A DNA stretch of 64,000 bases, taken from the NCBI GenBank assembly GCA_964016885.1, contig OZ024744.1, positions 62,496,001 to 62,560,000 of the forward strand. Direction: 5' to 3'. This document shows, piece by piece, positions 857 through 52,329 of this stretch. Below the pieces are notes generated by a model. That model saw only the letters and a program-made list of their open reading frames with translations. It did not search any database and was not told the origin of the DNA. Both the position numbers and the translations under genes were made by a program. Origin of the DNA: Eledone cirrhosa. Taxonomy: Eukaryota. Every line of letters starts with the position of its first letter. Position 1 is the stretch's first letter.

Positions 857-3122
857 AGCTACAACGGTACGCGATGGGGCCCACCCACAGCCCCGGTGGA
901 CAGAATGGAGAAGACGTTTTCCCAGAAAACAGCAAGGGAGACGCGCTGGAAAAGCCACTCCAACTCGCGGGGCTCACACCTGCAGCTAGTGAGTAAGGAG
1001 GTAGCCCTGGGGCCGAGGACACCAGAAGTCTCCACTGCCAGGGGTACGACCGCAAACCTGTCGGAGAGCGACCGGTATTTGAGGAGTTTGGCCACCTCAG
1101 CCCGATGCGCAGCAGAACCTGGGTCAGTCACAGACTGCACCAGTTTGCGGCTGCAGAAAGTGTTGATGCATCCCAGACGAGGGGTTTGCCACCGCGGAAC
1201 GGGAAGATGGTCATGCCATCTGGCCTTTTGCCGTCCCCTCGATCCAGCCCCACCGGCTCGAGCTGGGAAGGGAAGCCTGCAGCATCCAAGCCATGCTTAA
1301 TGAACTCGTTGAGGACAGCATGGAATGCGACCGGCACTATGGCGACAGGAAAGCAGGTGGAGGTCGAAAGAGTCCACGGTGGAACCGCAGCGACATTGGT
1401 GTGGCTGGCAGATCCAGAGGCCGAGCCTCAGGGAAATGCCGATTCGCAGGCTATGGTTGTCTAGCTGCGTGCCAGTGGAGAAGGAGGGCAGGGCAGGGCA
1501 TGGAGCCAGGCACCTCTGTGGGGTTGGAGGCCGCACGAAAACAAGCAAGGCGGTGCTGGTCGGGCTTGCGCGTAAGACTGTCTGAGACCAGGCTGCACTG
1601 GATGGCAACAGGGGGAGAAGAAGGAGGGACATCTACTGGGCTAAGTCCCAGCCGGTCCCACGTCTCACAAGCGGCCTCACATTCTCTGAACACAGAGGGT
1701 TCTGTGGTGTTTTGAAGAACCCTGCTGATGTGTTCGCAGCACGAGGTTACCGGCGAAAGATACGTCGGCAAAGCTAGTGAGATCGGGAACCGGAGACCAA
1801 GGCCGCCATACCTGACAGGTAAAGTGGCCTGTTGCCACCCTATGTCGTCAAACTTGACGTTGCATATCCCCTCGGCTGTTGCTTGGATACAAGTATCAAG
1901 GTCAGCGAGGAGAGATGTCCGGGTGCAGCATGGAGCGCTGCGGAGTGTATAGAGGAGCTTCGGCATGGCGAAGCAGTTCCTCAGCAGAAAGAGAGCTGGG
2001 TGGCCGTCAATCAAACCCAGTCGGCTCGTGCGAGTCTGGAGCTGTTGAAGCCTGGACCTGATGGTGGAACAGATGGCCAGCGGGTGGATCGGTGACCCGA
2101 GGATGAGGACATCCTCTTTGGGGTCACCTGAACCTGGCGGAGAATGGACCGCACGTCCAAGACGGAGGCTGCAAAGCTCGCAGCATCGAGGCTGACGTTC
2201 ACCACCTCCGACTTGGCCGAGTTGACCTGGAGGCTGATTCCTACCAGGGCAGGAATCACCGATTGAAGGTCATGGCAGACCGTCCGTACGGACCCGCCCA
2301 ACGTAGCATCATCCAGATACCAAACATTGAGAGGGGCCGTGATACTCCGGGTAATGTGGTCAATACCAAGGGCGAACAGGAGGGGTCCCAAAGGGTCACC
2401 CTGTTGGACCCCAGTAGCCGAGGGCATGACCGTATCAGCAGCAAGGAGCATGCTTGGGGCTCCATATGACAGGTAGGCAGAGGGGGCTCGGCTGAGGCAG
2501 GCATCGAGCAGATGATCCCGGCGTAAAGAGTTGAAGGCTTTCCTCATGTCAAGCTTGACAATGAGGTTCCTGGAGTCCCTGGATGTCGGTGCCGATGGGC
2601 AGCTGCTGAAGAAGTGCCTGGTTGCATGAGCGGCCCCCTCACAGCCACCGGACACGCTGACACCCAGTTGTACTGGACTAAACTCCTCACCCAGTTCGTG
2701 TGTTACAGACTTGCAGATCACCTTAGAAGCCAGCCTCTGGAAGACATTGCCCACAGCAATGGGGCGTATGCCACCCTCTTTCTTCCTGAGAGTGCTGAGG
2801 CTGGCCAAAAAAAAGAGGCCTCGGGCATAAGGGTCGAGGGCACCATGGATGAGCCTATTGGTGAGTGCCACAATTGCACTCAGAAGGCGGCGCCCAGCCT
2901 CAGCGGAGAGGAGGGATGTCAACTCCTTGAGGTGGCCTGGCCGGAGACCATCAACACTTCCACAGCTGCTAGCTGGGAAGGACCTGATGGTGGACATGAT
3001 GTCTGCATCAGTAGCCACAAGGAGCAAGTGGGGGGTATGGGTCTGAGATCAGTAGGTGGCTCAGGGTGTTTGAGTCGCAGAGCAGCCAGGACCTCCTCGG
3101 TGGGTTGGAGGACAGTGTCCAC
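857..3122 (-). mobile_element. CRE-like non-LTR retrotransposon (RT + CCHC knuckle + restriction-like endonuclease), 5'-truncated and frameshifted
   Basis: RT motifs RPIAVG, KLDMRKAFN, GVQQGDPLGPLLF, WYLDD (ORF 2011-3027); CRCG..HLLSC knuckle (1297-1632); DGKRPDG...WD and PLAVETSG RLE motifs (1128-1337, 859-1140). Visibly GC-rich relative to flanks. Confidence 0.88.
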
Positions 3123-3284: not shown

Positions 3285-5730
3285 ATCATCATCATCATCA
3301 CCGTTTTACGTCCGTTCTTCCACGCTAGCATGGGTTAGACGGGTTATCCTGTTGTGGGCAGTGTCCGGTCGGCTGACCTTGTCTTGCTCATACGGGAACT
3401 GATTCTGGCTTGATTTCTACAGCTGGATGCCCTTCCTAACACCAACCTCATTTACAGTGAGTGCTGGGTGCTTTTTTTCCGTGGTGCCTACACATCCACT
3501 TTACAGTGTGGGCTGGGTGCTTTTTTGCCGTGGCACCTCCACAACCACTTTGCAGTGGGAGGGTATGGGGGCATATTGTCTATATGCTTCAGCTTCAGCT
3601 TATACTCGTGGGAAGTCGGGTCTTCTGTATTACTGCGTGACGCCAGAGGTCACAGTCGTGTGTCATTGCCTTTGAGAGGTGTAATTGGGTATGGTCGGCT
3701 TTTATCACCTCATCCCAGGTCTTCTTGGGTCTCCCCACTCCGCGGTTTCCATTGACTTCTAGTGCTCTGCACCTTTTTATGCAGCTGTCATCCTTCATAC
3801 GCATCACGTGTCCATACCAACGCAACCTCCTCTCCTGCACACAGCATTTGATTCCTCCCATGCTCTGTCTCTCTCTCCCAATTCGTTTATGCTTTGCCGT
3901 TCGCGTTTGCTATTACACATCCATCGAAGCATACAAGATTCATTTCTTTCTAATCTATGCAAGTCTTCTACAGACAGCGCCCAAGTTTCACTACCATGTA
4001 ACATTTCTGTTTGTATGCACGCATCATATAGTCTAGTGGAGACCGACCTGTATGCTAAATTCCTTGCTATAGTCATTGCTAACCCTAACTTTGCTGACTG
4101 CTCCCCTATACATGGCTTGCACAGCTTTCACAAGTCATTCATCTACTCCTAGTTTTCTAAGAACCCACCAGATTATAGCACAGGGGCTATGTTGAAGGCT
4201 TTTTCCAGATCGACGAGTGCCTGGTAGAGCAGCTTACTTTTAGCTAGGTACTTTTCCTGTAACTGCCTCACAAGGAAAAGGGCATCAGTGGTGCCTTTTC
4301 CTGGCACAAACCCAAATTGCATCTCATCTATTTACCCGGTCCCTAATCAACTGTGCTTTAACTCTTTCCGTTACTTTCATGACCTGGTCCATCAGTTTTA
4401 TACCTCTATAGTTTCCTCTATCTTGTAGCAGTTGACAATGATGCTATTGCATCAATCCTTTGGTATGACACTCTCTAGTATTACCTGGTTAACAATATGT
4501 GTGGTTATGGTGTGACCTACTGACCCAGATGCCTTCATCATCTCGGCAGCTATACCCGATGGACCGGTTGCCTTCCTCATCTTCATATCTTGATTGCCTT
4601 ACTTACTACGCTGCTGCTGACTTGTATTGCTGGCCCCTCTATAGGGTCCACTTGGGGTAGGGTCTCTTTTTCTCATGCATTCTCCTCATTTAGTAATCTT
4701 TCATAATGGCTCTTCCACGCATCTTTCTTCTCAGCACTTGTGAGGGCAAGCTCACCTTTATCATTCCGGATCCACTTCTGTCCAATGACATCACAATTCT
4801 CTCTGACACACTGCCTCGCAATCTTGAATACCTCCTATTTCTGGTCTTCACGTTGCAAAACATGCTTGAATTTTCTATCCCCCGCTTCCCTTCTAGCTAA
4901 GTATACTTGTTGCTTAGATTCCCTCCTGGTCTTTATGTAACGTACCCTGCTTCCCCCGTTCTTCCATTCTTTCCATGCCTGTCTCTTGGCCTTAACTGCC
5001 TCATCTACCTTATTGTTCCACCACCAAGTCACTCTCCTCCTGCTTGTAGTCTTACTCCAGCCACAGATCTCATCCGTCGCTTTTAGTAAGTTATTTTTTA
5101 GGAACTCCCAGTGCTCTTCTACATTAAATATCTCTATCTGTTCTTTTTTACTGCCATAGGCGTTGGGTAAAATATCTTTAAATCTGTTACTGGCTGAGGG
5201 GTCTTTCAGCTTCCAGATCTCTCTTCTCCAGGTTGGCCTCTGTTTCCAAGTTCATCTAGTTCTGACAGTGAGGTTGCTGACAACTAAGCTATGTTGGGAA
5301 GTACATTCCTCACCAGGGAAAGCTTTTGTGTTTACAACTGTCCATCTATCCTGTCCTCGGATGAGGATAAAATCTATCTGACTAGAATGCTCCCCTGATC
5401 TATAGGTGATCGGATAGTTGTTGGGTTTTTTGAAGTTTGTGTTACATATCGACATGTCATTGGCATCGCAGAATTCTTGAAGCCTGAAGCCTTCTTCATT
5501 TCTTGTGCCAAACCCGTGGCCTCCATGGACTCTATAGAAGCCGTCACAGTGTTTACCAACGTGTCTGTTAAAATCTTCTGCAATGATTAGGAAGTCATTG
5601 TCGTTTGTTAGGGCAGTAGTGTGCATTAGGGACTCATAAAACCTATCCTTAAGATTGGGGTGCTTAAGCTGATATTATTGTGGCAATTGTTTTATTCAGA
5701 ACTAGTCTGAGTTTAATGATTCTTGCGTTC
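3285..5730 (-). mobile_element. Degenerate RTE-clade LINE (family A), APE to 3' tail, with an internal deletion near 4035-4050
   Basis: APE fragments (DFN.HVG, SQIDFIL, SQH), RT start (EMQFGFVPG), C-terminal RLRWYGHV; 3'UTR shared with the 19207-21023 copy; (GAT)n tail at 3285. Confidence 0.9.
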
Positions 5731-19206: not shown

Positions 19207-21023
19207 GGAAATACTAGGTATCATACCAAAAGATTGGTGCAGTAGCATCATTGTCAACTGTTACAAAGGTAAAGGTGATGCACTCGATAGAGGAAACTAT
19301 AGAGGTATAAAGCTGATGGACCAGGTCATAAAAGAAACAGAAAGGGTTATAGCACAGTTGATTAGGGACCGGGTGAAACTAGATGAGATGCAATTTGGGT
19401 TTGTACCAGGAAGAGGCACCACTGATGCCCTCTTCCTTGTGAGGCAGTTACAGGAAAAGTACCAAGTTAAAAGTAAGCCACTCTACCTGGCATTTGTCGA
19501 TCTCGAGAAAGCCTTTGACAGAGTTCCACGTGCTGTAATCTGGTGGGCTCTTAGAAAACTAGGAGTAGATGAAATGCTTGTGAAAGCGGTACAAGCCATG
19601 TATAGGGGAGCAGTCAGCAAAGTTAGGATTAGCAATGAGTATAGCGAGGAATTTAGCGTACAGGTTGGGGTCCACCAGGGCTCTGTTCTTAGCCCTCTCC
19701 TGTTCATCATAGTCCTGCAGGCAACAACGGAGGAGTTTAAGACCGGATGGGAACCCTGTATGCTCATGACCTCGCACTTATAGCTGAATCTATGGTAGAA
19801 CTAGAGAAGAAATTCCAAACTTGGAAGCAGGGACTAGAAAGAAAGGGTCTCAAAGTCAACATGACAAAGACTAAGGTCCTTGTAAGTAGACGAGAAAACA
19901 GAACCCAGATCCCCTCAGGGAAATGGCCTTGCTCAGTATGTAGGAAAAGTGTAGGTAGGAACTCCATTCTCTGCCCCAAATGCAAACAATGGGTACACAA
20001 GAGATGTAGCGGGATCTCAGGAAGCTTATTTAAGAATGTAGGCTTCACATGCAGCAGCTGTACTGGGACAGCAAGCAGCAAACAGCCACAGGAAACAAGT
20101 ACCACCAATCTCTGGGAGGGCTCTGTAGAAACAGTAGACAGCTTCTGCTACCTAGGTGACCGAATTAGCAGCGGAGGTGGGTGTTCAGAAAGTACAATAA
20201 CTAGGGCAAGAACGGGATGGAAGAAGTTCAGAGAACTACTACCACTGCTAGCTGCAAAAGGCTTCTCCCTCAAAATGAAAGGCAGACTGTATGATGCGTG
20301 TATTCGAACGGCATTGTTACATGGTAGTGAGACCTGGGCGCTGAAGGTGGAAGACTTACGTAGATTAGAGAGAAACGAAGCCTGCATGCTCCGATGGATG
20401 TGTAATAGTAATATACGCGAACGACAAAGCATAAATGAATTGAGAGAGAGACTGAGCATAAGAGGAATCAAATGCTGTGTGCAGGAAAGGCGGATGCGTT
20501 GGTATGGACATGTGATGCGTATGAAGGATGACAGCTGCATAAAAAGGTGCAGAGCACTAGAAGTCGATGGAAACCGCGGAGTGGGGAGACACAAGATGAC
20601 CTGGGATGAGGTGATAAAAGCCGACCTTACCCAATTACACCTCTCAAAGGCGAAGACAAACGACCGTGACCTCTGGCGTCATGCAGTAATACAGAGTACC
20701 CGACCTCCCATGGGTACAAGCTGAAGCATATAGACAATATGCCCTCACAGCCTCCCACTGCAAGGTGGTCGTGGAGGTGCCACGGCAAAAAGCACCCAGC
20801 CCACACTGTAAACTGGACGTGTAGGCGCCACGAAAATGCACCCAGCACTCACTGTAAATGAGGTTGGTGTTACGAAAGGCATCCAGCTGTAGAAATCAAG
20901 CCAAATCAGTTCCTGTATAAGCAAGATAAGGTCAGCCGACCAGACTCTGCCCACAACAGGACAACTCGTCTAACCCATGCTAGCGTGGAAGAACGGACGT
21001 ATAACGGTGATGATGATGATGAT
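19207..21023 (+). mobile_element. 5'-truncated RTE LINE (family A) with RT, PHD insert, 3'UTR and (GAT)n tail
   Basis: ORFs 19316-19783 ([21 protein letters not shown]) and 19747-20724 (YAHD, PHD, RMRWYGHV) linked by one frameshift. Confidence 0.95.
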
Positions 21024-21054
21024 ATATATATACATATATACACATACATATAGA

Positions 21055-22337
21055 CATCATCATCATCATCATCATCATTTTACGTCCGCTTTTCCCTGCT
21101 TGCAAGGGTGGGACGGGTCTTATTCAGCACAGCATCTCTCCACTCGTCACGGTCCCTCGTCATCTCCACCGTGAGCTTCAATGATCTGAGGTCTGTTCTC
21201 ACCACCTCCGCCCATGTTTTTCGTGGTCTACCTCTACCACGTCTTCCTTCAACTGGCAATTCCTGGCACTTCTTCACCCATCGGTCATCCTCCATGCGCA
21301 TCACATGTCCATACCACCTCAGTCTCCTCTCTCGCACACTACATTCTATCCCTCTCAGACACAGTTTCTCTCTCAACACATTTATGCTGGGTCGTTCACG
21401 CACATTTACACTGCACATCCAACGGAGCATGCTTGCTTCATATCTCTCCAGCCGTCGCATATCCTCTGCGGTTGCTGCCCATGTCTCACTACCATGCAGC
21501 ATCACGCTCCTCACACAGCATCATACAACCGTCCTTTCGTACGCAGGGAGAAACCCTTCTTCGTCAACAGAGGAAGCAGCTCCCTAAACTTCTTCCAACC
21601 CGTCCTTATTCTAGATACTATGGCCTCAGAACACCCTCCTCCCATGCTAATCTGATCTCCTAGGTACCGGAAGCTATCCACCACTTCTATAGCGCCCTCC
21701 TGCATTTGAAAAATGTGTCTATCAATGCGACTTCTACTGTCTAATTTCCCTGTACATCTACTGCATATATATTTCTCCCTACCTGTTAGTTTGCCTGCTA
21801 TCCCGCTACATCTCTTGTGTACCCAGGATCTGCATTGTGTGCATTTTATAGAATTTATGCCAGTTCCTTTTCTGCATATCGAACATGGCCATTTCCCTGA
21901 CGGAATCAGGGTTTTGTCCTCTTTTCTACTCATCAACACTTTTGTCTTAGCTAGATTCACTCTCAGTCCTCTTGCTTCCAACTGCTGTTCCCATAGCCAG
22001 AATTTATTCTCTAGCTCCTCTACTGATTCTGCCATAAGAGCCAGATCGTCAGCATAGAGAAGTTCCCATGGACAGCCAGTCTTAATCTCCTCTGTTATGG
22101 CTTGGAGGACTATAATGAACAAGAGCGGGCTGAGGACCGAATCCTGATGTACTCCTACTTGTATCTGGAATTCCTCACTAAACTCCATTCCTACCCTGAC
22201 GTTACTGAGAGTACCTCTGTACAAAGTTTGCACTGTCCTCAACACCTAGCTTCCTTAGGGCCCACCAGATGACAGATCAGGGTACCCTATCAAAGGCCTT
22301 CTCTAGGTCAACAAAGGCTAAGTATAGTGGCTTATTC

Positions 22338-26654: not shown

Positions 26655-27172
26655 AGACCTGCCTTACCTGAATACAAAGTAAAACCTACTACAGTCAGTA
26701 GGCATCTCTAACAAAACACACCCCCGTCCCACCACCCCCACCTCATCCACACTGCCCCTTTCAATGTAAAGTTATGTTGGTGCCACAACATCCAGGCCGA
26801 AACAAATGAGATCGTGTAGGTGTCACGAGAAAAAAACACACAGTCCACGCTCTAATGTGGCCGTGTAGGCAACACTGTAAAAACCTCCCAGTCCCACACT
26901 GTAAATGTGGTTGGTGTTAGGAAGGGCATCCATCTGTAGAAAACACGCCAGACAGTCCACGCTGTAATGTGGCCGTGTAGGCAACACGCTAAAAACCTCC
27001 CAGCCCCACACTGTAAATGTGGTTGGTGTTAGGAAGGGCATCCAGCTGTAGAAAACCCGCCAGACAGTCCTATGCGAGCAAGACAACCACTCTTGCCTTA
27101 AGTGGGAAAACTCCCGTCCAAACCCATGCAAGCGTGGAACATGGACGTTAAACGATGATGATGATGATGATA
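26655..27172 (+). mobile_element. RTE family C 3'UTR (with internal ~120-bp duplication)
   Basis: Matches the reverse complement of 42211-42730. Confidence 0.88.
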
Positions 27173-27325: not shown

Positions 27326-29185
27326 AAAAAATATATATATATATATATATATACATATACATACACACACACACACACACACATACATTAATAACAATAA
27401 TAATAATAACAATAATATGTATACACACGCACACGCATAAGCATATCTACACACACACGATAGCAACTAACAGCGCTGCCATCGAATGTGGCTTTTCAGC
27501 CCAGCCAATGATCTAAAATGTCTTGCACAGAGTCGGCAACCAAAACATTCACTGGGAATAGTCGGCTGTGGTTGGAGTTGGTGTACTTTTGCATGTCGCT
27601 TGAGTCCTCCTGCTGATTTACATTCTCTACCACATGTTTGGCAAGCATGATGAGTAGCATCTCCAACAGCAGCCTGGTAGTCAACCACTGGTCTTACTTT
27701 ATGACTGCGAAGATGACTTTCGAGTCCAGCTTTGCTTAGGCAGAGTCTCGCACAGACGCTGCATGTCAGCACCATAGGAGGACCCTCGCCGTCTGGAAGT
27801 GCAACAGCAATGCCCTTCCTCACATCCCGCTTTACTTTCTCGTATGCGATTCGAGATGCCTCAAAGGCAACTTTTCCCTCATATACAGTCTTTCTCCATT
27901 TATTACGATCAGCAGCAATATTCTCCCATGTATCAGCAGAGATGTTAGCGTCTTTCAGAGAGGCTTTCAAGGAATCCTTATACTTCTTTTTTGGTTTATG
28001 TGGTGGTCGTTTTCCTTTAACTAACTCTCCATAAAAGAGTTGTTTTGGTATTCTAGAATCCTTCATCCTGGCAAGGAGACCACTCCAACGGAGTCGTTGC
28101 TTAAGCACAAGAGCTTCTATACTGTCACACATAGAGCTTTCCAAAATCCGACATCACTGATGTGGTCCCTCCAGTGAACGCCATGGATCCGTCTGAGACA
28201 CATCTGATGGAATGCTCCAATTGCTTAAGGTGGTGTTGATATGTGACCCAGGTCTCGCAGGCATAAAGAAGACAAGAGAGAACACATGCCCTGTACACCT
28301 TTACCTTTGTCCTCCTGCATGATTCGCCGACCCCAGAGTCGCCTTTCTAGCTTTCCGAAAGCATCACTTGCTTTCCTAATCCTAAGTGAGATTTCACTGT
28401 CAAGGTTGCCGTATAGATTGACAGTGCTTCCCAGGTAGACAAACTGATCAACCACTCCAAGTCGTTTACCATACATATAGTTATTTGGTTCAGTGTACTG
28501 CTTACCAGGGGCAGGTTGGTACATGACGACGGTTTTCTTGAGACTGAGTCAATCCTAGGGCAGTGCAAGCGTCAGAAAATGCATTCCAAATGTGCTGCAT
28601 ATCACTCTCTGTGTGCGCTACAAGATCGCAATCATCTGCATACAAGAGGTCTCTTATGATTGATGTAAATACTTTTGTCTTCGCAGCAAAGCGCCTGATG
28701 TTAAATATGCTGCCTGAGGTTCGATATCGGATGTAAACACCATGCTCGCAATTCCTGATTGCAATACAGAAAACCATTGCAAAGTATATGGCAAACAGGG
28801 TCGGTGCTGGAATATCCCCCTGTTTCACTCCATTTTTTACTGAGATAGGCCCCGACATGTTACTCCCGACATTAACCCAAACCTTCATGTTGTCATGGAA
28901 AGACCTAACTAAAGCAAGGAACTTATCAGGGCAACCAAGTTTCTGGAGAACCTTCCATAATGCATCTCTGTTATCAGTATCGAAAGCTTTTGTCAGATCG
29001 ACAAAAACCTGATACAGATCCAAGCCTTGTTCCATGCACTTCTCCTGGAGCTGTCTAGCTGAGAAGATCATATCAGTAGTGCCGCGTCCAGCACGAAAAG
29101 CAGATTGACTTTCAGGAAGGACACAATCTGCAATGTGTGTCAGCAGACGGTCCAGAAGCACCCTACATAAAACTTTCCCTACGAC
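27192..29185 (-). mobile_element. 5'-truncated BovB-like RTE LINE with three C-terminal C2H2 zinc fingers
   Basis: RT motifs [46 protein letters not shown]; RLRWSG; fingers CSVC..HLRSH, CQTC..HAKVH, CRLC..SHIRWQ; several frameshifts. Confidence 0.92.
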
Positions 29186-29281
29186 ATATATATATACATA
29201 CATATATATATATACACACATATATATATATATATATACATATATATACACACATATATATATATATATATACATATATAT

Positions 29282-29372
<91 letters not shown>

Positions 29373-29413
29373 TATATATATATATATACATATATATATA
29401 CATATATATATAC

Positions 29414-29444
<31 letters not shown>

Positions 29445-29487
29445 CATATATATATACATATATATATATATATACATATATATATAC

Positions 29488-29518
<31 letters not shown>

Positions 29519-29562
29519 CATATATATATACATATATATATATATATACATATATATATACA

Positions 29563-32058
29563 TAACTTTGAATAACTTTGAAATGTTTTGGCCAGTATTG
29601 GCCCAGGCCATGTCTAACTTAATAGCACCACCTGGCGAAGTCTTTCAATTCAGGATTTGGGCACCATGGCCCATTCGAGAAGAGAATTACTGTTTGCGGA
29701 GACATATCCGGGTGTGGGTGGTTTGTCCGGGATTACTTGGAGGAATTTGTCCAAAGACTTCTTGAATTTTGTGTGGTCAGTTTCTGTTTTGACGTGTCCT
29801 GGTGTGATGTTGAAGAGAGCAGGGCCGATTGAGGTGAAATAATTGTGCCGTATTGTTGTTATGAGTTGCGATTTAGATTTTTGAATGGGACGGATAGCAC
29901 GGGGCCCAAGCCTTGGGTGTATCTTGAAGGCGATGCCAACATCATTTGGGCAGTGATGATGGAACATTTTCCACATCATGCAGATAATATAACGCTCACG
30001 GCGACGTTGGAGTGAGTAAAGTTTCAGGTTTTCCAATCGACCCCAGTAGTCAAGGTCTGACATGCCATCTATCTTTTTCGTGATTGCCCTTTGAGGAGCT
30101 TCAAGTTTCATGATACTTTGTTTCGTGTGGGGAGACCACAGTGGACAACAGTATTCAAGGTGTGGTCGGGCGAAAGTAGAGAAGAGAAGGATAATGGTGC
30201 GGGAATCTCTCGACTGGAAGGTTCTGAGGATCCAGGAACACATTCTGCGGGCCATGTCAACTTTGCTGCTTATATGCGTGGTCCAGCTTATGTTGCTGTC
30301 CACGGTTACTCCCAAGTCTCTGATGTTGTTAGATGCCACGAGAGTTTCCCCGGAGGGAAGGGAGTACGGGAGTTTCAGAGCATCCTCTTTTCCAAAGTGG
30401 ATCAGTTCGAATTTGTCTTCGTTCAGTAACATGTTGTTCTTTTCTGCCCATTGGGTAACAGCCAGTAGGTCTGACTGAAGGCTTATCCGGTCATCCACGC
30501 CATTGATGACCTTTTGGAGCTTGGAATCATCAGCGAAAATTTTAATGTTGCTGTGTTTGATGATGTCAGTGATGTCATTAATATAGATGATGAAGAGAAG
30601 TGGGCCCAACACAGTGCCTTGTGGGACTCCACTACTGACTTTGGCTGGGCTTGATTTGACTCCCTCAACTACAACATGTTGGGTTCTGTTTGACAGGAAG
30701 CTCTTGATCCACTGCAGCAGCTTTCCAGTGACACCAATATTGGACAGCTTTCTCAGTAGAATGTTATGATCAACCCTGTCAAAGGCCTTGCTGAAATCAA
30801 GGTAGATAACATCAGTGTTGGAACCCTCTCCCAAGGCTCTCAAAATGTCATCAAAGTGATGCAGTAGTTGCGTCAGGCAATCCCTTCCATTACGGAATCC
30901 ATGCTGGTTGGAGTTCAGCATATTGTTACTCTCAAGGAAGTGGGTCATTCGCGATCTCACCACTCGCTCAAATACCTTAATGATATGAGAGGTGAGTGAG
31001 ATTGGACGGTAATTCACGGCAAGGGATTTGTTTCCCTTTTTGAAAACTGGGACAACAGACTGGGATAGAAGGTTTTCTGGCACATATCCAGCATCCAGTG
31101 AGTTCCGCCACAGATTGGCAAGAGGAGAAGCAAGTTGGTGTTGACACGCCTTCAAGACACAAGCAGGGAACCTATCGGGACCTACTGCTGAATTATGCTT
31201 GATTTCCTTTATTGCCGCCAAGACATCAGGGGCGCCAAACGTTATGTCCGATAAGGTGTAATGGGGAGTAACATCGCCGATACAGCCCAGATCGGCCATA
31301 TCAGGATTGCTGAAAACAGAGCAGTATTGTTTCTGCAGTATCTCACCCATGGTTTTAGCATTGTCTTGAAGAGTGCCATTTTCATCAATTAGAGGGCCAA
31401 CAGTAGAGCCAGTGATTTTGTGTTTTTTTGCAAATGAAAAGAACACTTTGGGATTGAGTTTGATCTTCTCAATGGCCCAGGCCTCTTCAGCTCTTCTCTG
31501 ATTGTTGATGAGGGACATTATGTTGTTTTGGAGGTTATGTTTTTTAATCTCTAGTGATGAAATGGCAGTCAAGTTGATGTGTTGCTGCTGACAGTATTTC
31601 AGATTGTTGATTTTTTTGTTCGTTCTCTTAATTTTTCTGATGAGCGTTTTTCTATTTCTAGGGATTCTGCTCTTAGATTTGTTTATAGTTCTTAATGGGG
31701 TGTGTTTAGCACATATGTTTGTAACAGTGTCCACAAATGTCTGCCAGGACTTTTTGATGTTAGTGGGTGTATGAGTGTGCGTGAAGGACCAGTCGACATG
31801 TGCAAGATCATGACTGATCGCGTCCCAGTTTGCATTGTGGAAATCCATAGCGTCAAACGGATGGACAGGAGAAATGACATTGGGTTTGTATATTGGACGG
31901 TGGAATCTCAGATCACAGAGAACCATGTCATGATCAGAGAGTAGAGTTTTCTCCACTGCAATATTGTGGATATTGTCAGTGTGATTGCTGAAAATTAAGT
32001 CTAGGACGTTTTTGTGGCACCTCGTTGGTTCGAGCACTAGTTGGGATAGGAAGAAATC
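29563..32058 (-). mobile_element. 5'-truncated CR1-group LINE with an uninterrupted ~800-aa ORF2 remnant (end of APE + RT)
   Basis: LDLIFSN and LSDH (APE); [53 protein letters not shown]; stop at 29650; (TTCAAAGTTA)2 tail; (TA)n on both sides. Confidence 0.93.
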
Positions 32059-34878: not shown

Positions 34879-37800
34879 ATCATCATCATCATCATCATTT
34901 TACGTCCGCTTTTCCCTGCTTGCAAGGGTGGGACAGGTCCTATTCAGCACAGCATCTCTCCACTCGTCACGGTCCCTCGTCATCTCCACCGTGAGCTTCA
35001 ATGATCTGAGGTCTGTTCTCACCACCTCCGCCCATGTTTTTCGTGGTCTACCTCTATCACGTCTTCCTTCAACTGGCATTTCCTGGCACTTCTTCACCCA
35101 TCGGTCATCCTCCATGCGCATCACATGTCCATACCACCTCAGTCTCCTCTCCCGTACACTACATTCTATCCCTCTCAGACACAGTTTCTCTCTCAACACA
35201 TTTATGCTGGGTCGTTCACGCACATTTACACTGCACATCCAACGGAGCATGCTTGCCTCATTTCTCTCCAGCCGTCGCATATCTTCTGCGGTTGCTGCCC
35301 ATGTCTCACTACCATGCAGCATCGCGCTCCTCACACAGGCATCATACAACCGGCCTTTCGTACGCAGGGAGAAACCCTTCTTCGTCAACAGAGGAAGCAG
35401 CTCCCTAAACTTCTTCCAACCCGTCCTTATTCTAGATACTATGGCCTCGGAACACCCTCCTCCCATGCTAATCTGATCTCCTAGGTACCGGAAGCTATCC
35501 ACCACTTCTATAGCGCCCTCTCGCATTTGAAAAATGTGTCTATCAGTGCGACTTCTACTGTCTAATTTCCCTGGAATTTATTCTCTAGCTCCTCTACTGA
35601 TTCTGCCATAAGAGCCAGATCGTCAGCATAGAGAAGTTCCCATGGACAGCCAGTCTTAAACTCCTCTGTTATGGCTTGGAGGACTATAATGAACAAAAGC
35701 GGGCTGAGGACCGAACCCTGATGTACTCTTACTTGTATCTGGAATTCCTCACTAAACTCCATTCCTACCCTGACTTTACTGAGAGTACCTCTGTACAAAG
35801 TTTGCACTGTCCTTACAAGCCATTCCTCAACACCCAGCTTCCTTAGGGACCACCAGAAGACAGACCGGGGTACCCTATCAAAGGCCTTCTCTAGGTCAAC
35901 AAAGGCTAAGTATAGTGGCTTATTCTTCTCTAAGAACCTCTCTTGCATTTGTCTCACCAAGAAGAGGGCATCTGTTATACTCTTCCCAGGCACAAAACCA
36001 AACTGCATCTCATCTAGTTTGATCCTTTCTCTAATTAGTTGTGCTAAAATCCTTTCTGCCACTTTCATAACCTGATCTATCAGTTTTATACCCCTATAAT
36101 TGCTCCTCTCCAAAGCATCCCCTTTACCTTTGTAGCAATTTATGAGAATACTGCTGCACCAGTCTTTGGGTATGACACCACCATATATAGCCTGATTGAT
36201 TATGCGTGCAACCAGTTTAGTGCCTACGTCCCCTGATGCCTTCAGCATCTCAGCAACTATTCCCGATGGTCCGGCCGCCTTACCATTTTTCATTTCCCTA
36301 ATCGCCTCTTGGACCCTATATTCGTCAATCTCAATAGCTGGTCCCTCTGTCGGATCTACCAAGGGTAATTTCTCTCTCTCCCATTCGTTCTCCACATTCA
36401 TCAGTCTCTCATAATGACATTTCCAGGCCTCCTTTTTCTGGTCATTCGTGACACTAAGTACACCGGCATCATCCCGGACACATTTATCACCAACAACATC
36501 CTGATTTGCATTGACACACTGCCTTGCAATGTGGAACACCGCACGCCTCTGATCTTCCCGTCGCAGAACATTGGCAAACCTCCTACTCTCTGCCTCCCTG
36601 CGTGCTAAGTACACCTGACGTCTAGCTTCTCTCTTAGTGGCTGTATATTCTTCCCTACTCCCACCCTTTTTCCAAGCCTTCCATGCTCGTCTTTTGTCTC
36701 TAATAGCCTTATCTACACTGCTGTTCCACCACCAGGTCACTCTCTGTCTGGTTGGAGCTCTGCTCCAGCCACAGGTTTCATCAGTAGCCTTCAGCAAGTT
36801 GTCACGTAAGAACTTCCAGTTATTATCTATGTCATACGTCTCTAAATCGTCTTCTTTTTCGTCATATACATCTTGAAGGGCTTTCCTAAATTTGAATTTT
36901 AGTGAAAGGTCTTTTAGCTTCCAGACCTTTCTTCTCCACACCTTCCTATATGCCTCATTCCATCTCTTGCTTACTGATATATCACTAACAACTAACCTAT
37001 GCTGTGGGGTACATTCTTCCCCAGGGTATGCCTTGGTATTAGACACTATCTGCCTGTCCCGCTGCCTAACTAGCAGGAAGTCAATCTGGCTTATGTGCTC
37101 ACCAGATTTGTAGGTTATTAGGTGATTGGCAGGTTTCTGGAAGTTTGTGTTGCAAATAGTCAATGTACTTGCATCACAAAATTCAAGAAGTCTCACTCCT
37201 TCTTCATTTCTTGAACCGTAACCGTGCCCACCATGTACCCCAGTGTAACCATCCTGGAGCTGTCCAACATGACCATTGAAGTCTCCTGCTAGCATAACGA
37301 TGTCTCCGTCCTCTGTCATTGTGGTTGTTTGCAAAAGTTGCTCATAAAAGCAGTCTTTCTCATCTTTGCCTAGGCCTGCTTGGGGAGCATAGACCGAGAT
37401 GATTGTCAGTAGTCTCCTACCTACAACTAATCTAAGCTTAATTATTCGATTACTAACTCGAACTACCTCTATTGTCTTATTGATCCATTTCTCAGCCAGG
37501 AAAATGCCTACTCCCCCTAACCCATCATCCTTACCTACCCAGAATAGCTTATAGCTAAGACGCTTGCCTACGACTAGTCTCGCAGAGGCACCTCTCCATC
37601 TCACCTCTTGCACGCAACACACATCCACCTGCCTTCTCTCCAGCATCTCCGCTATTTCAGCAGATCTACCTCTGAGAGTGCCAACATTAAGTGTTGCAAC
37701 TCTGAGATGCGACGTCTTCATATTTTTCTATGCTGTTTTGTTGCTGTGCTGATAAGCTTTTTGGCATTGATACACTGGTTGGATGCCCTTCCTAACACCA

Positions 37801-42211: not shown

Positions 42212-44767
42212 CATCATCATCATCATCATCATCAGGTTTAGCGTCCGTGTTCCACGCTTGCATGGGTTTGGACGGGGGTTTTCCCACTTGAGGCAAGAGT
42301 GGTTGTCTTGCTCGCATAGGACTGTCTGGCGGGTTTTCTACAGTTGGATGCCCTTCCTAACACCAACCACATTTACAGTGTGGGGCTGGGAGGTTTTTAC
42401 CGTGTTGCCTACACGGCCACATTACAGCGTGGACTGTCTGGCTGGTTTTCTACAGCTGGATGCCCTTCCTAACACCAACCACATTTACAGTGTGGGGCTG
42501 GGAGGTTTTTACCGTGTTGCCTACACGGCCACATTTACAGCGTGGACTGTGTGTTTTTTGTCGTGACACCTACACGATCTCATTTGTTTCGGCCTGGATG
42601 TTGTGGGACCAACATAACTTTACATTGAAAGGGGCGGTGTGGGTGGGGTGGAGGTGGTGGGACGGGGGTGTGTTTTGATAGAGGTGCCTACTGACTGTAG
42701 TAGGTTTTTACTTTGTATTTAGGTAAGGCGGGTCTTCTCTATTACTGAGTACCGCCAAAGGTCTCGGTCCAGTGACATTGTCTTGGAGAGGTGTAAGCGT
42801 GTGAGGTCGGAATTTATCAGCTCGTCCCATGTTTTTCTGGGTCTGCCTACTCCGTGGCTACCGTCTATCTTTATTGCCCTGCACTTTGTTATACAGCTGT
42901 CGTCTTTCATGCGCATCACGTGACCGTACCAACGTAGCCTTCTCTCGAGTAAACAACATCTGATCCCTCTTATTTCTAATTTTTTCCTTAGTTCGTTTAT
43001 GCTTTGCCGTTCACGTATATTACTATTGCACATCCAGCGGAGCATGCAAGCTTCGTTCCTCTCTAGTCTGCGTATATCCTCTGCACACAATGCCCAGGTC
43101 TCACTGCCATGCAGCATTGCTGTTCGTATGCAGGCATTGTATAACCTGCCTTTCATTTTTAGGGAGAACCCTCTAGCGGCTAATAGTGGTATAAGCTCTC
43201 TGAACTTTTTCCATCCAGTTCTGACTCTAGCTACTGTACTTTCAGAGCACCCTCCCCCACTGCTGATTTTGTCACCCAGATAACGGAAGCTGTCCACTAT
43301 TTCTATAGAACCCTCTGCGCAGTTGAAGGAGCTAGTATTTGTGGGCACTTGCTGCTACTTATTGCACCAGAGCACCGGCCACATGTAAAATCTATGTTCT
43401 TAGTTAGCTTACCTGTGATCCCACTACATCTTTTATGCACCCATACTTTGCATTTGGGACATAAAATGGAGTTTCTACCTACGCCTTTCCTACACACTGA
43501 GCATGGCCATTTCCCCGATGGGACCGCCGCCTTATTTTCTTTCCTACAAACTAGAACTTTAGTCTTAGCCAGGTTAATTTTAAGGCCTTTTGATTCTAGG
43601 CCGTGCTTCCACGTTTGGAATTTCTTCTCTAGCTCGGCCATTGATTCAGCTATGAGCGTTAGATCATCTGCGAATAGGAGTTCCCAGTTCGGAACAACCC
43701 CATTCTGTACGACTTGGTTAACTATCCGGGTGACCATGGTGTGTCCCACCGAACCAGATGCCTTCAGCATCTCAGCAACTATTTCCGAAGGCCCAGCCGC
43801 CTTACCCGTCTTCATATCTTTGATTGCCTTACTTATTATACTACCTTCAACTAACACTGCTGGTCCCTCTATTGGATCGATCTGGGGGAGACTGTCTTTC
43901 TCCCATTTGTTCTCCTCATTTAGAAGCCTTTCGTAGTGACACTTCCAAGCTACCTTCTTATCAGCGTCGGTGATGGCAAGTATGCCATCATCGTTAAGTA
44001 CACACTTCTCCCCGACAATATCACGGTTTTCCTTGACACATTGCCTGGCAATCCTGAACACCTCACGTTTTTGGTCCTCACGTTGTAGAACATGCTTGAA
44101 CTTTCTTTCCTCTGCTTCCCTTCTTGCGAAGTACACTTGTCTCCTAACTTCCCTCCTGGCCACTTGATAGTCTTCTCTACTTCCCCCATCCCGCCATACT
44201 TTCCAAGCCTGCTTTTTGGCCTTAATTGACTCCTCCACCTTACTGTTCCACCACCATGTTACTCTCCTCCTACCTACAGGCCTGCTCCAGCCACAGACTT
44301 CGTCTGCCGCCGTCGGCAGGTTTGCTCTCAGGAATTCCCACTGTTCCTCTATATTATACGACTCTAATTGCTCTTCCTTACTGTCGAAAGCGTCAAGTAA
44401 TCTGCTTTGAAATTTATTTCTGGCTATGGGGTCCTTTAGCTTCCATATTTTTCTCCTGAGGATAGTCCTCTTTCGCTGTCTAGTACGTCTCGTCCTGACT
44501 ATGAGGTCGCTAATTATCAGTCTATGTTGGAAGGTGAATTCTTCATGGGGGTGGGATTTAGTGTTAACAACAGACACTCTGTCACGTCTTCTGGTAAGGA
44601 TATAATCTACCTGGCTTGTGTGTTCCCCCGATCTATAGGTGATCAAGTGATTGTCTCGTTTTTTGAAGTTAGTGTTACAGATAGTTAAGTTATTTGCGTC
44701 GCAGAATTCCAGGATTCTGGAGCCTTCCTCATTTCTAGTACCGAACCCATAGCCTCCATGGATTCCG

Positions 44768-46314: not shown

Positions 46315-46347
<33 letters not shown>

Positions 46348-46354
46348 CATATAC

Positions 46355-46405
<51 letters not shown>

Positions 46406-46424
46406 CATATACATATATATATAC

Positions 46425-46477
<53 letters not shown>

Positions 46478-46707
46478 CATATATATACATATATATACAT
46501 ATATACATATACATATATATACATATATATATATATATACATATACATACATATATATATAAACATATACATACATATATATATATATATACATATACAT
46601 ACATATATATATATATATACATATACATACATATATATATATATATACATATACATACATATATATATATATATACATATACATACATATATATACATAT
46701 ATATATA

Positions 46708-46763
46708 TGTTAATTCACTGGGGAACTGGAGTCATATGACTCCAGTTCCCCAGTGAATTAACA
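46708..46763. repeat. Perfect 56-bp palindrome at the 5' edge of a Penelope-type remnant (46708-46955)
   Basis: tgttaattcactggggaactggagtcat|atgactccagttccccagtgaattaaca. Confidence 0.95.
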
Positions 46764-46850
46764 ACCCAACAAGGAACTGGGCATATCAGAGTATTGACAA
46801 TATCATACACCTAAACAACATATGTACTTGTCTATACCATACTAATTCAA

Positions 46851-46905
46851 ACTGCCTGAAGAGGTCACAGCCAAAGATGGCTGTCACTGAAATATATATA
46901 GCAGT
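46851..46905 (+). ncRNA. Minimal type I hammerhead ribozyme (Penelope-type)
   Basis: Stem I ACTGC/GCAGT; core CTGAAGA (46856-62); stem II GGT(C)ACAGCCA/TGGCTGT(C)ACT; GAAA (46889-92); self-complementary TATATA stem III; AUA triplet ending at 46900; AATAAA at 46906-11. Confidence 0.82.
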
Positions 46906-46987
46906 AATAAACGAAGCTAAATTTTAATCATTTGACTTTTATTTAACTTTATTTTATATATACACATATATATATATATATATATAC

Positions 46988-47074
<87 letters not shown>

Positions 47075-47145
47075 CATACGTTATTCCGGGTTGAATCGGA
47101 GGTAACCACAGTAAGTAAGGTACTCAATACATTGCAGAGTATAAA

Positions 47146-47265
47146 AGTTTTAATAAAGATGAGATTCTACAGGACTAGAACTGTTTCATTCTTTAGAAAT
47201 CATCATGATGATTTCTAAAGAATGAAACAGTTCTAGTCCTGTAGAATCTCATCTATATTAAAACT
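47146..47265. repeat. 120-bp near-perfect palindrome containing a 5'-truncated hammerhead core in each arm
   Basis: Centre catca|tgatg (47205/6) with one mismatch; arm reads TGATGA-TTTCTAAAGAAT-GAAA-CAGTTCTA-GTC. Confidence 0.9.
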
Positions 47266-47310
47266 ATATATATACATATATATATAAATATACATCCATA
47301 TATATATATA

Positions 47311-48608
47311 CATCATCACCATCATCATCGTTTAACGTCCGTGTTCCACGCTTGCATGGGTTTGGACGGGAGTTTTCCCACTTGAGGCAAGAGTGATTGT
47401 CTTGCTCACATAGGACTGTATAGCTCTCACAAGCCATTCATCAACCCTTTGTTTTCTAAGGGCCCACCAGATAATGGCGCAGGAGACTTTGTCAAATACT
47501 TTCTCCAAGTCAACAAAAGCTAAGTATAGGGGTTTACTTTTAGCTAGGTACGCCTTTCCTACACACTAAGCATGGCCATTTCCCGGAAGGGACCGGCACC
47601 TTATTTTCTTTCCTACAAACTAGAACTTTAGTCTTAGCCAGGTTAATTTTAAGGCCTTTTGATTCTCGGCCGTGCTTCCATGTTTGGAATTTCTTCTCTA
47701 GCTCGGCCATTGATTCAGCTATGAGCGTTAGATCATCTGCGAATAGGAGTTCCCATGGGCAGTCGGTCTTGAACTCCACTGTTATGGCCTGAAGGGCAAT
47801 ATTAAATAGTAGGGGGCTAAGAACAGAGCCCTGATGAACACCAACTTTTACACTAAACTCTTCACAATATTCGTTGTTAATTCTAACCTTGCTGACTGTT
47901 TCTTTATACATGGCTTGTATAGCTCTCACAAGCCATTCGTCAACACCTAGTTTTCTAAGAGCCCACCAAATAATGGAACGGGGGACTCTGTCGAAGGCTT
48001 TCTCCAAGTCGACAAAAGCTAAGTATAGGGGTTTACTTTTAGCTAGGTACTTCTCCTGTAGTTGTCGTACAATGAAAAGAGCGTCTGTGGTACTTTTGCC
48101 TGATACAAAACCGAACTGCATTTCATCTAGATCAATTCTCTCTCTGATTAGTTGCGCTATTACTTTTTCCGTGACCTTCATGACCTGGTCGATTAATTTA
48201 ATGCCTCTATAGTTACTCCTATCTAGGGCATCTCCTTTACCCTTGTAACAGTTAATGATGATGCTGCTGCTACGCCAGTCCTTCGGAACAACCCCATTCT
48301 GTATGACTTGGTTTACTATCCGGGTGACCATGGTGTGTCCCACCATTCCAGAGGTTTTCAGCATCTCAGCAACTATTTCCGAAGGTCCAGCCGCCTTACC
48401 CATCTTCATATCTTTGATTGCCTTACTTATTATACTACCTTCGACTAACACTGCCGGTCCCTCTATTGGGTCGATGTGGGGGAGACTGTCTTTCTCCCAT
48501 TTATTCTCCTCATTTAGTAGCCTTTCGTAATGACACTTCCAAGCTACCTTCTTATCAGCGTCAGTGATGGCAAGTACGCCATCATCATTAAGTACACACT
48601 TCTCCCTG

Positions 48609-51418: not shown

Positions 51419-51554
51419 TACACGCACATATGAAATTTGCATGTCATAATGCAAAAATGTAAAACAGTAAAAAAAAAAAAAAAAAAAATTTATAAAATGG
51501 ATAAATAATTTTATTAGATAAAAATAAACAAAACAAAACCAAAAATATCCATAC

Positions 51555-51683
51555 CTCATGGAGTTCTTCAGGATTTCTCCTAAAATATAATCCAGTGGAG
51601 GTGCTATGTATGGAAACGTCACATTCAAATGGCCATTCAAACGGACATTGGGGGCTGCTCCATATTTAGCTTCACAAACACTC
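51555..51683 (-). CDS. BCKDK: BCKDK coding exon ([42 protein letters not shown](R))
   Basis: 129 nt; attttAG acceptor and GTATGG donor; contains the N-box ExLKNxxR; resembles BCKDK LCEHKYGNAPRVRINGH...PLDYILPELLKNAMR. Confidence 0.94.
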
Positions 51684-52329
51684 CTAAAATGTACAAAAAT
51701 ATAAAACTATTTTTTAAAGAAACTGAAAAAGAAATTACCTGCACAAAACAACAACAATAATATTAGAAACAATGATAATGATAATAATTAAAAGTAAAAA
51801 AAAAAAAATACTGACAGAAATCTATTAAAAAAAAACACCAAAAACTATGAAATAACAGAATACTTTCAAGGAAATAGATAAATATAAGCAAAACATTTGT
51901 TAGTAAACTAATAATTAATTGATTAATATAAAAACCAAGAAAACAAAAAATATGCAGAGAGGGAATTTATCCACACAACCCACAAGAGAGAAGAAATATT
52001 TTAAAAATATATAGAGAGAGAAGTAACAATATGACAAGACAGATGCAGAAAAGTAAAATCAGTTTTTCAATATAAGGGTTTAAAAAAAAAAAAAGATTTA
52101 AAAAAATGAGAGAAATGTCAAAGGTAAAACAAGAATCTACAGGAAATAACATACAATTAGGATTCTAGTAATAGATAAAGTTTGATAAGAGATATTAATA
52201 GATGAGGTTGATAAGAGATATAAGTCACAAGTATTGTAATAATACATGGGATTGACAAAAAATATAAGGGGTGAATATCACTTATGTTACAATAATAGAT
52301 GAGGTTGACAAAAGATATAGTTAAAGGCA

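What the first reader, a model, noticed from the sequence alone, without database searches (positions are those of the whole stretch)
46708..46955. 250-bp non-coding unit: perfect palindrome + intact minimal hammerhead ribozyme + AATAAA, embedded in (TA)n
Seen: a 56-bp perfect palindrome, then ACTGC-CTGAAGA-[10-bp stem II with one C.C mismatch]-GAAA-TATAT-AUA-GCAGT with all catalytic core bases and a perfect 5-bp stem I, then AATAAA, then (TA)n. Established: Penelope-like elements carry minimal type I hammerheads with a palindromic stem III in their terminal repeats, can cleave as dimers, and often have inverted 5' ends. Inference: this is a Penelope pLTR remnant or a non-autonomous retrozyme-like unit whose ribozyme may still work. 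It is antisense to BCKDK, so it would not cut the host pre-mRNA.
Basis: partly seen in the sequence, partly recalled or inferred. Interest (0 to 1): 0.72.

Follow-up and report, generated by a model that had tools for sequence, protein, structure and literature searches.

The report
Penelope stub marking its RNA start
This 248-base piece is a short, protein-less stump of an abundant young Penelope-like jumping gene, carrying its predicted self-cutting RNA motif; its palindrome sits at a spot where about half of the young copies stop, which likely marks where the element's RNA begins.

Summary
Observation confirmed. The unit is neither a retrozyme nor a lone remnant. It is the last 222 bp of the pseudo-LTR of a young Hydra-clade Penelope-like element (7,836 exact hammerhead hits genome-wide; about 4.15-kb unit; intact 891-892-aa RT/GIY-YIG frames), plus a 28-bp inverted stub, inserted in (TA)n in a BCKDK intron, antisense to the gene. 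The 56-bp length is unique to this locus, but the palindrome centre is not: 201 loci share it, and at least 996 of 1,833 counted young arms stop at this base. A sister family and a second family (the latter 31 nt below a TATA box) show the same pile-up. Best reading: reverse transcriptase starts at one of two fixed sites about 100 nt apart and runs off the RNA 5' end; two such copies join head to head. Junctions at the predicted ribozyme cut are rare, so the copied RNA was mostly uncut. The hammerhead is conserved (one compensatory pair) but probably inactive as a lone monomer; no RNA data were available. This scan reached the same start-site reading earlier on other DNA of this genome. Ordinary locus, useful family-level clue.

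The parts
46315..46707 (.). (TA)n-type microsatellite, left flank (target)
   Evidence: Tandem Repeats Finder
46708..46735 (-). 28-bp inverted stub: reverse complement of element positions 1-28; likely an aborted or later-deleted second arm
   Evidence: this exact left junction occurs once in the genome
46734..46737 (+). ATAT at the fold centre; A46734 is the 5'-end hotspot (position -1), the inferred transcription start (A of native TTC-A-TATG)
   Evidence: start site itself inferred, no RNA data
46734..46955 (+). Sense arm: pLTR from hotspot to first fixed 3' end (E1); in full-length copies this is both the start of the 5' UTR and the end of the element
   Evidence: 99% identical to pLTRs of full-length copy L033; 100% to many copies
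46851..46905 (+). Minimal type I hammerhead: 5-bp stem I, CUGAAGA, 10-position stem II with C.C mismatch and G-U first pair, GAAA, self-complementary AUAUAUAU stem III/loop; predicted cut after A46900
46906..46911 (+). AATAAA; kept one base further on in the sister family, absent at this place in several older subfamilies; role untested
46956..47078 (.). (TA)n right flank (target)
47079..47267 (.). Neighbouring independent insertion of a second PLE family: 98-bp palindrome (47157-47254) folded inside its hammerhead core, one arm with a tail of about 70 bp
51554..51685 (-). Host BCKDK exon (approximate); the gene runs on the minus strand to exons near 18.0 and 17.0 kb, so the unit is intronic and antisense

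Best explanation
The unit is a 5'-truncated copy of a young Hydra-clade Penelope-like retrotransposon inserted in (TA)n, likely made when the element's reverse transcriptase copied only the front end of its RNA and ran off the RNA's 5' end. Shown: identity with the pLTR of a 4.15-kb RT/GIY-YIG element; two fixed 3' ends, E1 (position about 220) and E2 (about 317-324), each followed by (TA)n; head-to-head pairs almost always join one E1 arm to one E2 arm; 5' ends pile up at position -1. Inferred: the endonuclease cuts (TA)n, each DNA end primes a cDNA at E1 or E2 (as in the two start sites of PAc), both cDNAs stop at the capped 5' end (position -1), their self-complementary ATAT 3' ends anneal, and fill-in gives a perfect palindrome. 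Here the second arm stopped or was lost after 28 bp. The hammerhead is read straight through; in the full element it would act as a dimer between the two pLTRs of one transcript, perhaps with protein help, while this lone antisense intronic copy is likely inert.
For: 7,836 exact hits of a 22-mer across stem I/core/stem II, control 0. Full-length L031, L033 with pLTR-tail-ORF-pLTR; intact 891- and 892-aa frames in L060, L061 with RWK, DKT, CxCX5C, CxxC/CxH (vs section 11 of PMC8557442). In 60 loci, 99 of 105 arms end beside (TA)n or (CT)n; 36 of 39 head-to-head pairs are E1+E2, two more (L031, L033) are E2 plus a full-length arm ending at E1, one is unclear. 29 of 105 arms start within -4..+4, against at most 4 per 10-nt bin from +10 on (18 starts in the -230 bin are the edge of the reference). 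Genome counts at -1: 837 read through, 594 with another base before the site (1 of 30 loci inspected was a point change), 201 perfect palindromes = 402 arms. Sister family (72% aa) keeps CCAAT about 50 nt above TCATATG and 12 of 30 loci start exactly there. Second family: truncations gather about 31 nt below a TATA box (16 loci read by eye). G exceeds A before the site, 31 vs 12 in the first 100 rows (p = 0.005 against 1:1), as a cap-copied C would give. Both arms of a locus share locus-specific variants in 9 of 11 loci that could be compared, of 21 tried, so the palindromes arose repeatedly, not from one master.
Against: No RNA evidence for the start site, a cap or cleavage. ATAT at the hotspot matches the (TA)n target and itself, so microhomology alone favours junctions there; 57 of the first 100 junctions have T before the site. 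In 3 of 7 G-junction loci the script found the G to be the partner arm's next base, and 2 more look so by eye, so the cap signal is ambiguous. Shared variants also fit one arm being copied from the other. 20 of the 60 loci were hand-picked for wide spacing, and all were selected by a motif upstream of the cut site. Solo copies starting at the ribozyme cut and joined to (TA)n would be invisible to and were not counted. Pfam gives no RT or GIY-YIG hit for L061; only a 34%-identical homologue hits RVT_1.
Confidence: 0.68

Rival explanations
1. Same element, but the hotspot is a microhomology or repair artefact: randomly truncated cDNAs join wherever ATAT/TCATATGA can pair with (TA)n or with itself, and no RNA end is involved.
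For: Native TCATATGA is an 8-bp palindrome; 57 of the first 100 junctions have T before the site; other inverted junctions show overlaps of a few bases.
Against: Junctions at -1 also occur after filler or non-TA partners; the longer TA run inside the hammerhead is not an inversion hotspot (16 loci within about 10 nt); the second family's hotspot has no ATAT and sits 31 nt below a TATA box.
Confidence: 0.12
2. Same element, but the second arm is made by self-priming (snap-back) of one strand, possibly on an antisense template, as proposed for rotifer PLEs (PMC3846280, passages read), rather than by two cDNAs.
For: Arms share private variants in 9 of 11 loci; short inverted stubs of 14-54 bp recur at this centre, and the window is one.
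Against: Solo E1 and solo E2 copies both exist (L066, L063), and paired arms end at different fixed sites, which simple snap-back does not explain; one locus (L120) has different subfamily variants in its two arms.
Confidence: 0.13
3. A self-propagating non-autonomous unit: a retrozyme or a 537-bp hairpin master element.
For: Many 537-bp copies are 100% identical, and PMC8557442 describes non-autonomous PLE derivatives.
Against: No tandem arrays of the unit; the sequence lies wholly in the autonomous pLTR; the palindrome recurs on different subfamily backgrounds with symmetric variants; short copies lack the upstream CCAAT region.
Confidence: 0.05
4. The copy has a host role in BCKDK regulation (hairpin in pre-mRNA or antisense ribozyme).
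For: It lies in a BCKDK intron, and the 28-bp hairpin forms on either strand.
Against: One of thousands of near-identical young copies; the intron is full of other mobile elements; the ribozyme is on the non-transcribed strand.
Confidence: 0.02

Closest known systems
Hydra clade of C-terminal EN+ Penelope-like elements (Craig et al. 2021, PMC8557442; passages, section 11 and supplementary metadata rows read; includes Hydra-1_Obim, 2,507 bp, (TA)n)
   Same: Single RT + C-terminal GIY-YIG frame with RWK, DKT, CxCX5C linker, CxxC and CxH; hammerhead in pLTR; (TA)n targets.
   Different: Unit about 4.15 kb and frame 891-892 aa with two long low-complexity inserts (clade described as generally under 3 kb); clear pLTRs. 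Not compared by sequence with Hydra-1_Obim.
PAc, Poseidon element of Anolis (Frangieh et al. 2024, PMC11167929; parts 1-2 of 4 read)
   Same: Two fixed 3' ends bounding a tail; AT-rich targets; hammerhead cleavage not needed for insertion, uncut RNA the main template.
   Different: Tail about 100 nt here against the usual 30-40; both sites and the hammerhead lie in a 5' UTR of about 370 nt, not in the ORF; a sharp 5'-end hotspot is not described in the parts read.
Minimal PLE hammerheads (Cervera and de la Pena 2014, PMC4209133; parts 1-2 of 4 read)
   Same: Type I, 5-bp helix I, long helix II, palindromic helix III/loop 3; mostly single copies from truncated PLEs, also pairs 100-700 bp apart on opposite strands.
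   Different: G10.1-U11.1 in the young subfamily; no extra base between 9 and 10.1; conserved C.C mismatch in helix II.
Drosophila virilis Penelope promoter (Schostak et al. 2008, PMC2377424; passages) and Adineta vaga Penelopes (Arkhipova et al. 2013, PMC3846280; passages)
   Same: Transcription starts inside the upstream pLTR; pLTRs with 18- and 38-bp palindromes at their 5' end and inverted junctions.
   Different: Those authors read the palindromes as self-priming on an antisense template; the counts here favour run-off from a sense RNA.
Metazoan non-LTR retrozymes (bioRxiv 10.64898/2026.07.22.740005, part 1 of 5 read; PMC7229834, search listing only)
   Same: Short non-coding unit with a type I hammerhead, related to PLE pLTRs.
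   Different: Not tandem; no sign of an independent replicon.

Membership tests
EN+ Penelope-like elements | Single ORF with RT and GIY-YIG endonuclease linked to this sequence | tested here: met
   Intact 891-892-aa frames; YRDD invariant and Y..YIG, R, E, N near-invariant among 18 aligned proteins. Pfam finds nothing in L061 itself, RVT_1 in homologue P0024; GIY-YIG recognised by motif only.
EN+ Penelope-like elements | Pseudo-LTRs from partial tandems | tested here: met
   L033: 449-bp direct repeat at both ends of the frame, period 4,152 bp.
EN+ Penelope-like elements | Inverted 5'-truncated copy and a tail at one end only | tested here: met
   36 of 39 pairs E1+E2, two more on inspection; tail about 100 bp rather than 30-40.
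Hydra clade | RWK and DKT motifs | tested here: met
   RRMRWKAF and HADKTNN in L060/L061.
Hydra clade | CxCX5C linker; CxxC and CxH around conserved E and N; no CCHH | tested here: met
   CNCRNPESC, CKLC..E..N..CRH; absence of CCHH judged by eye from the alignment.
Hydra clade | (TA)n targeting and hammerhead in pLTR | tested here: met
   99 of 105 arms.
Hydra clade | Placement in an RT tree with reference clades | not tested
   No named reference proteins were returned.
Minimal PLE hammerhead | Core, 4-5-bp helix I, long helix II, palindromic helix III/loop | tested here: met
   97.6% of 288 cells paired in 18 hand-picked variants; one pair changes on both sides (C-G to U-A, one event, sister family); stem I invariant, so no covariation there.
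Minimal PLE hammerhead | G10.1-C11.1 pair | tested here: inconclusive
   G-U in this copy and the young subfamily, G-C in 15 of 18 aligned variants.
Minimal PLE hammerhead | Self-cleavage (as dimer) | not testable with these tools
   No RNA run listed.
Non-LTR retrozyme | Tandem array of two or more ribozyme units | tested here: not met
   Single unit in the window; no head-to-tail array of the unit in 60 loci.
Non-LTR retrozyme | Expressed circular RNA | not testable with these tools
   No RNA run listed.

The most novel reading that the evidence does not exclude
The short copies are strong-stop products: PLE reverse transcriptase starts inside the 5' UTR of a capped sense RNA at two sites 100 nt apart, one per end of the DNA break, runs off the cap, and then either pairs with the other cDNA (palindrome), joins the target (solo copy) or jumps to the 3' pLTR and continues, a retrovirus-like strand transfer that would explain how PLEs rebuild tandem pLTRs and their promoter without ribozyme-made circles.
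Probability: 0.25. Interest if true: 0.7.

Novelty: new member of a known kind. Interest (0 to 1): 0.38.

Why it matters
The locus itself is an ordinary transposon stump. The family matters because how PLEs form head-to-head palindromes, which RNA strand they copy and what the hammerhead does are stated as open in PMC3846280, PMC8557442 and PMC11167929. Here thousands of young copies record fixed start sites and a single-base stop site, and intact frames exist, so the question can be tested directly. It also warns that palindrome-plus-hammerhead units in such genomes should not be annotated as retrozymes or hairpin RNAs by default.

Tried and rejected
Rfam: no hammerhead family matched; the miRNA hits are (TA)n and hairpin artefacts. 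Pfam on the element's frames: no real hit; PDB sequence search with the RT part: 0 hits. Sequencing runs: no RNA holder listed; laying contigs of three runs of one sample says nothing on ends or expression. Ribozyme cut as a source of 5' ends: 16 loci have an inverted junction within about 10 nt of the cut, 3 of them the exact ACTGCAGT join; 101 arms have a non-A base before the cut, and of the first 30 inspected 26 are point changes, 2 internal deletions and 2 rows one true junction locus. So rejected as a major route, not excluded as a minor one. A recurrent 56-bp palindrome: rejected, the left junction is unique. Neptune clade, my first guess from recalled motifs: dropped after reading the Hydra definition. 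Literature: five completed searches listed no paper describing a start-site pile-up of PLE 5' ends; the library lacks most subscription papers, I read only the parts named, and supplementary figures of PMC11167929, PMC4209133 and the 2026 preprint were not seen and may bear on this. A look-up of earlier notes by this sequence and near this place was empty.

Full report
1. Observation. The palindrome is perfect over 46708-46763, and 2,000 shuffles of the unit gave at most 18 bp. The hammerhead has a 5-bp stem I, CUGAAGA, a stem II of nine pairs and one C.C mismatch, GAAA, a self-complementary AUAUAUAU, and A46900 as the predicted cut site, followed by AATAAA; (TA)n flanks both sides. It folds better than 199 of 200 shuffles. 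Rfam does not recognise it. BCKDK exons lie on the minus strand on both sides, so the unit is intronic and antisense. The host is likely an octopod (inferred from named homologues).

2. What it is. A DNA search found many 100%-identical copies (40 of 333 candidates scored), and a 22-mer from the ribozyme occurs 7,836 times, control 0. Loci L031 and L033 show the parent: pLTR, tail, a frame from position 373, 3' UTR, pLTR, then (TA)n, with a period of 4,152 bp in L033 (position 1 = window 46736). L060 and L061 hold intact 891- and 892-aa frames. They carry RWK, DKT, YRDD, CxCX5C, a C-terminal GIY-YIG-type core and CxxC/CxH, the features that define the Hydra clade in section 11 of PMC8557442. 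Pfam does not score L061; a homologue scores RVT_1. No tree with reference clades was built. The window unit is positions -1 to 220 of this element plus an inverted copy of positions 1-28.

3. Anatomy of insertions. I mapped 60 loci from the first 100 hits on C1: 20 hand-picked, mostly for wide spacing, then 40 in order. Arms end at E1 (about 220) or E2 (about 317-324), and 99 of 105 lie beside (TA)n or (CT)n. Of 39 head-to-head pairs, 36 are E1+E2; two labelled E2+E2 are full-length arms whose far end is E1; one is unclear. This is the known one-ended tail, here about 100 nt instead of 30-40. PMC11167929 (parts 1-2 read) showed that a tail lies between two reverse transcription start sites.

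4. The palindrome centre. In full-length copies the centre reads TTGAATTCAT|ATGACTCC, so only 8 bp are natively palindromic. The perfect fold-back at this centre occurs at 201 loci; 594 further arms have a non-native base just before position -1, of which 1 of 30 inspected was a point change; 837 read through. At least 996 of 1,833 counted young arms (54%) therefore stop at one base. In the 60 loci, 29 of 105 arms start within -4..+4, including old copies only 75-89% identical. The 28-bp length of the window's stub is unique. In 9 of 11 comparable loci, of 21 tried, both arms share variants that differ between loci, which points to repeated origin from different source RNAs.

5. Why a transcription start. 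The site is the A of a TCA initiator-like word (recalled consensus), about 50 nt below a CCAAT box. A sister family with 72% protein identity and a pLTR that blastn barely aligns keeps both words at that spacing, and 12 of its first 30 loci start exactly there. A second family, whose palindrome lies 120 bp to the right in the window, has a TATA box, and its truncated copies gather about 31 nt below it (16 loci, by eye). D. virilis Penelope is known to start inside the upstream pLTR (PMC2377424, passages). G outnumbers A before the site, 31 to 12 in the first 100 rows (p = 0.005 against 1:1), as expected if a C is added opposite the cap; but in 3 to 5 of 7 such loci the G is also the partner arm's next base. 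Against this reading: ATAT pairs with the target and with itself, so microhomology contributes, and there is no RNA evidence.

6. The ribozyme. Among 18 hand-picked variants, 97.6% of cells pair; one stem II pair changes on both sides in the sister family (one event), the loop and flanks vary, and core and stem III are nearly invariant. Relatedness and my choice of rows inflate these numbers, but retention in a family whose surrounding pLTR has diverged suggests selection in active elements. The young subfamily has G10.1-U11.1 where older ones have G-C. Stem III is unfavourable in a monomer (-11.6 against -15.0 kcal/mol) and gains -3.2 as an 8-bp intermolecular duplex, in line with the dimer model of PMC4209133, where monomers were inactive and dimers weak. 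Junctions at the cut are rare: 16 inverted junctions within about 10 nt, and one true junction locus among the first 30 of 101 hits. Solo copies joined to (TA)n at the cut were not counted. The copied RNA was thus mostly uncut, as for PAc in vitro.

7. Mechanism. Shown: identity, ends, pairing rule, hotspot. Inferred: cleavage of (TA)n, priming at E1 and E2 by the two DNA ends, run-off at the capped 5' end, annealing through ATAT, fill-in. The window copy kept the E1 arm and 28 bp of the other. I put 0.95 on the family assignment and 0.68 on the mechanism. Rivals are microhomology alone (0.12), self-priming as proposed in PMC3846280 (0.13), an independent retrozyme or hairpin master (0.05) and a host role (0.02).

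8. Novelty. Inverted pLTRs, tails, 5' palindromes and minimal hammerheads are all described. Five searches listed no paper on a start-site pile-up. After I had formed this reading, earlier unchecked notes of this scan showed the same idea on other DNA of this genome; they are not independent support, and one of them led me to PMC2377424. Verdict: new member of a known kind, interest 0.38.

Noticed in passing
window 47079-47267: Second PLE family stump: 98-bp perfect palindrome folded inside its hammerhead core, so both arms lack the 5' strand of stem I; the family has 9,206 exact core hits, a TATA box and a hammerhead that begins at the inferred start site; L202 holds the start of its frame (RWR, DKT).
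   Followed up: partly
L182:4989-5958 (minus strand): Three hammerheads at a period of about 485 bp inserted in the sister family's copy: a retrozyme-like array.
   Followed up: no
L194:338 and 814: Two very small hammerheads 476 bp apart, 7-bp stem I and CTAG loop: another retrozyme-like repeat.
   Followed up: no
L061 frame, residues about 485-600 and 665-745: Two long low-complexity inserts absent from most homologues, kept in frame; similar to the asparagine-rich inserts described in Adineta Penelopes.
   Followed up: no
L013, L019, L107, L110, L116, L119: Complex junctions at the hotspot with short repeated fold-backs and template switches, as if the cDNA end re-primed more than once.
   Followed up: partly
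L033:4441-4641 and 5270-5515: A 100-bp tandem repeat just after the stop codon, and an old duplication of about 150 bp of the CCAAT region in the young subfamily; older subfamilies align only from position -81.
   Followed up: no
window 1451-3048, 19208-22245, 27467-31985, 34900-37727, 42719-44750, 47540-48600: Many broken LINE-type RT frames and a SINE-like repeat (112-bp period at 26840, 42319, 49943) fill the BCKDK intron between long (TA)n tracts.
   Followed up: no
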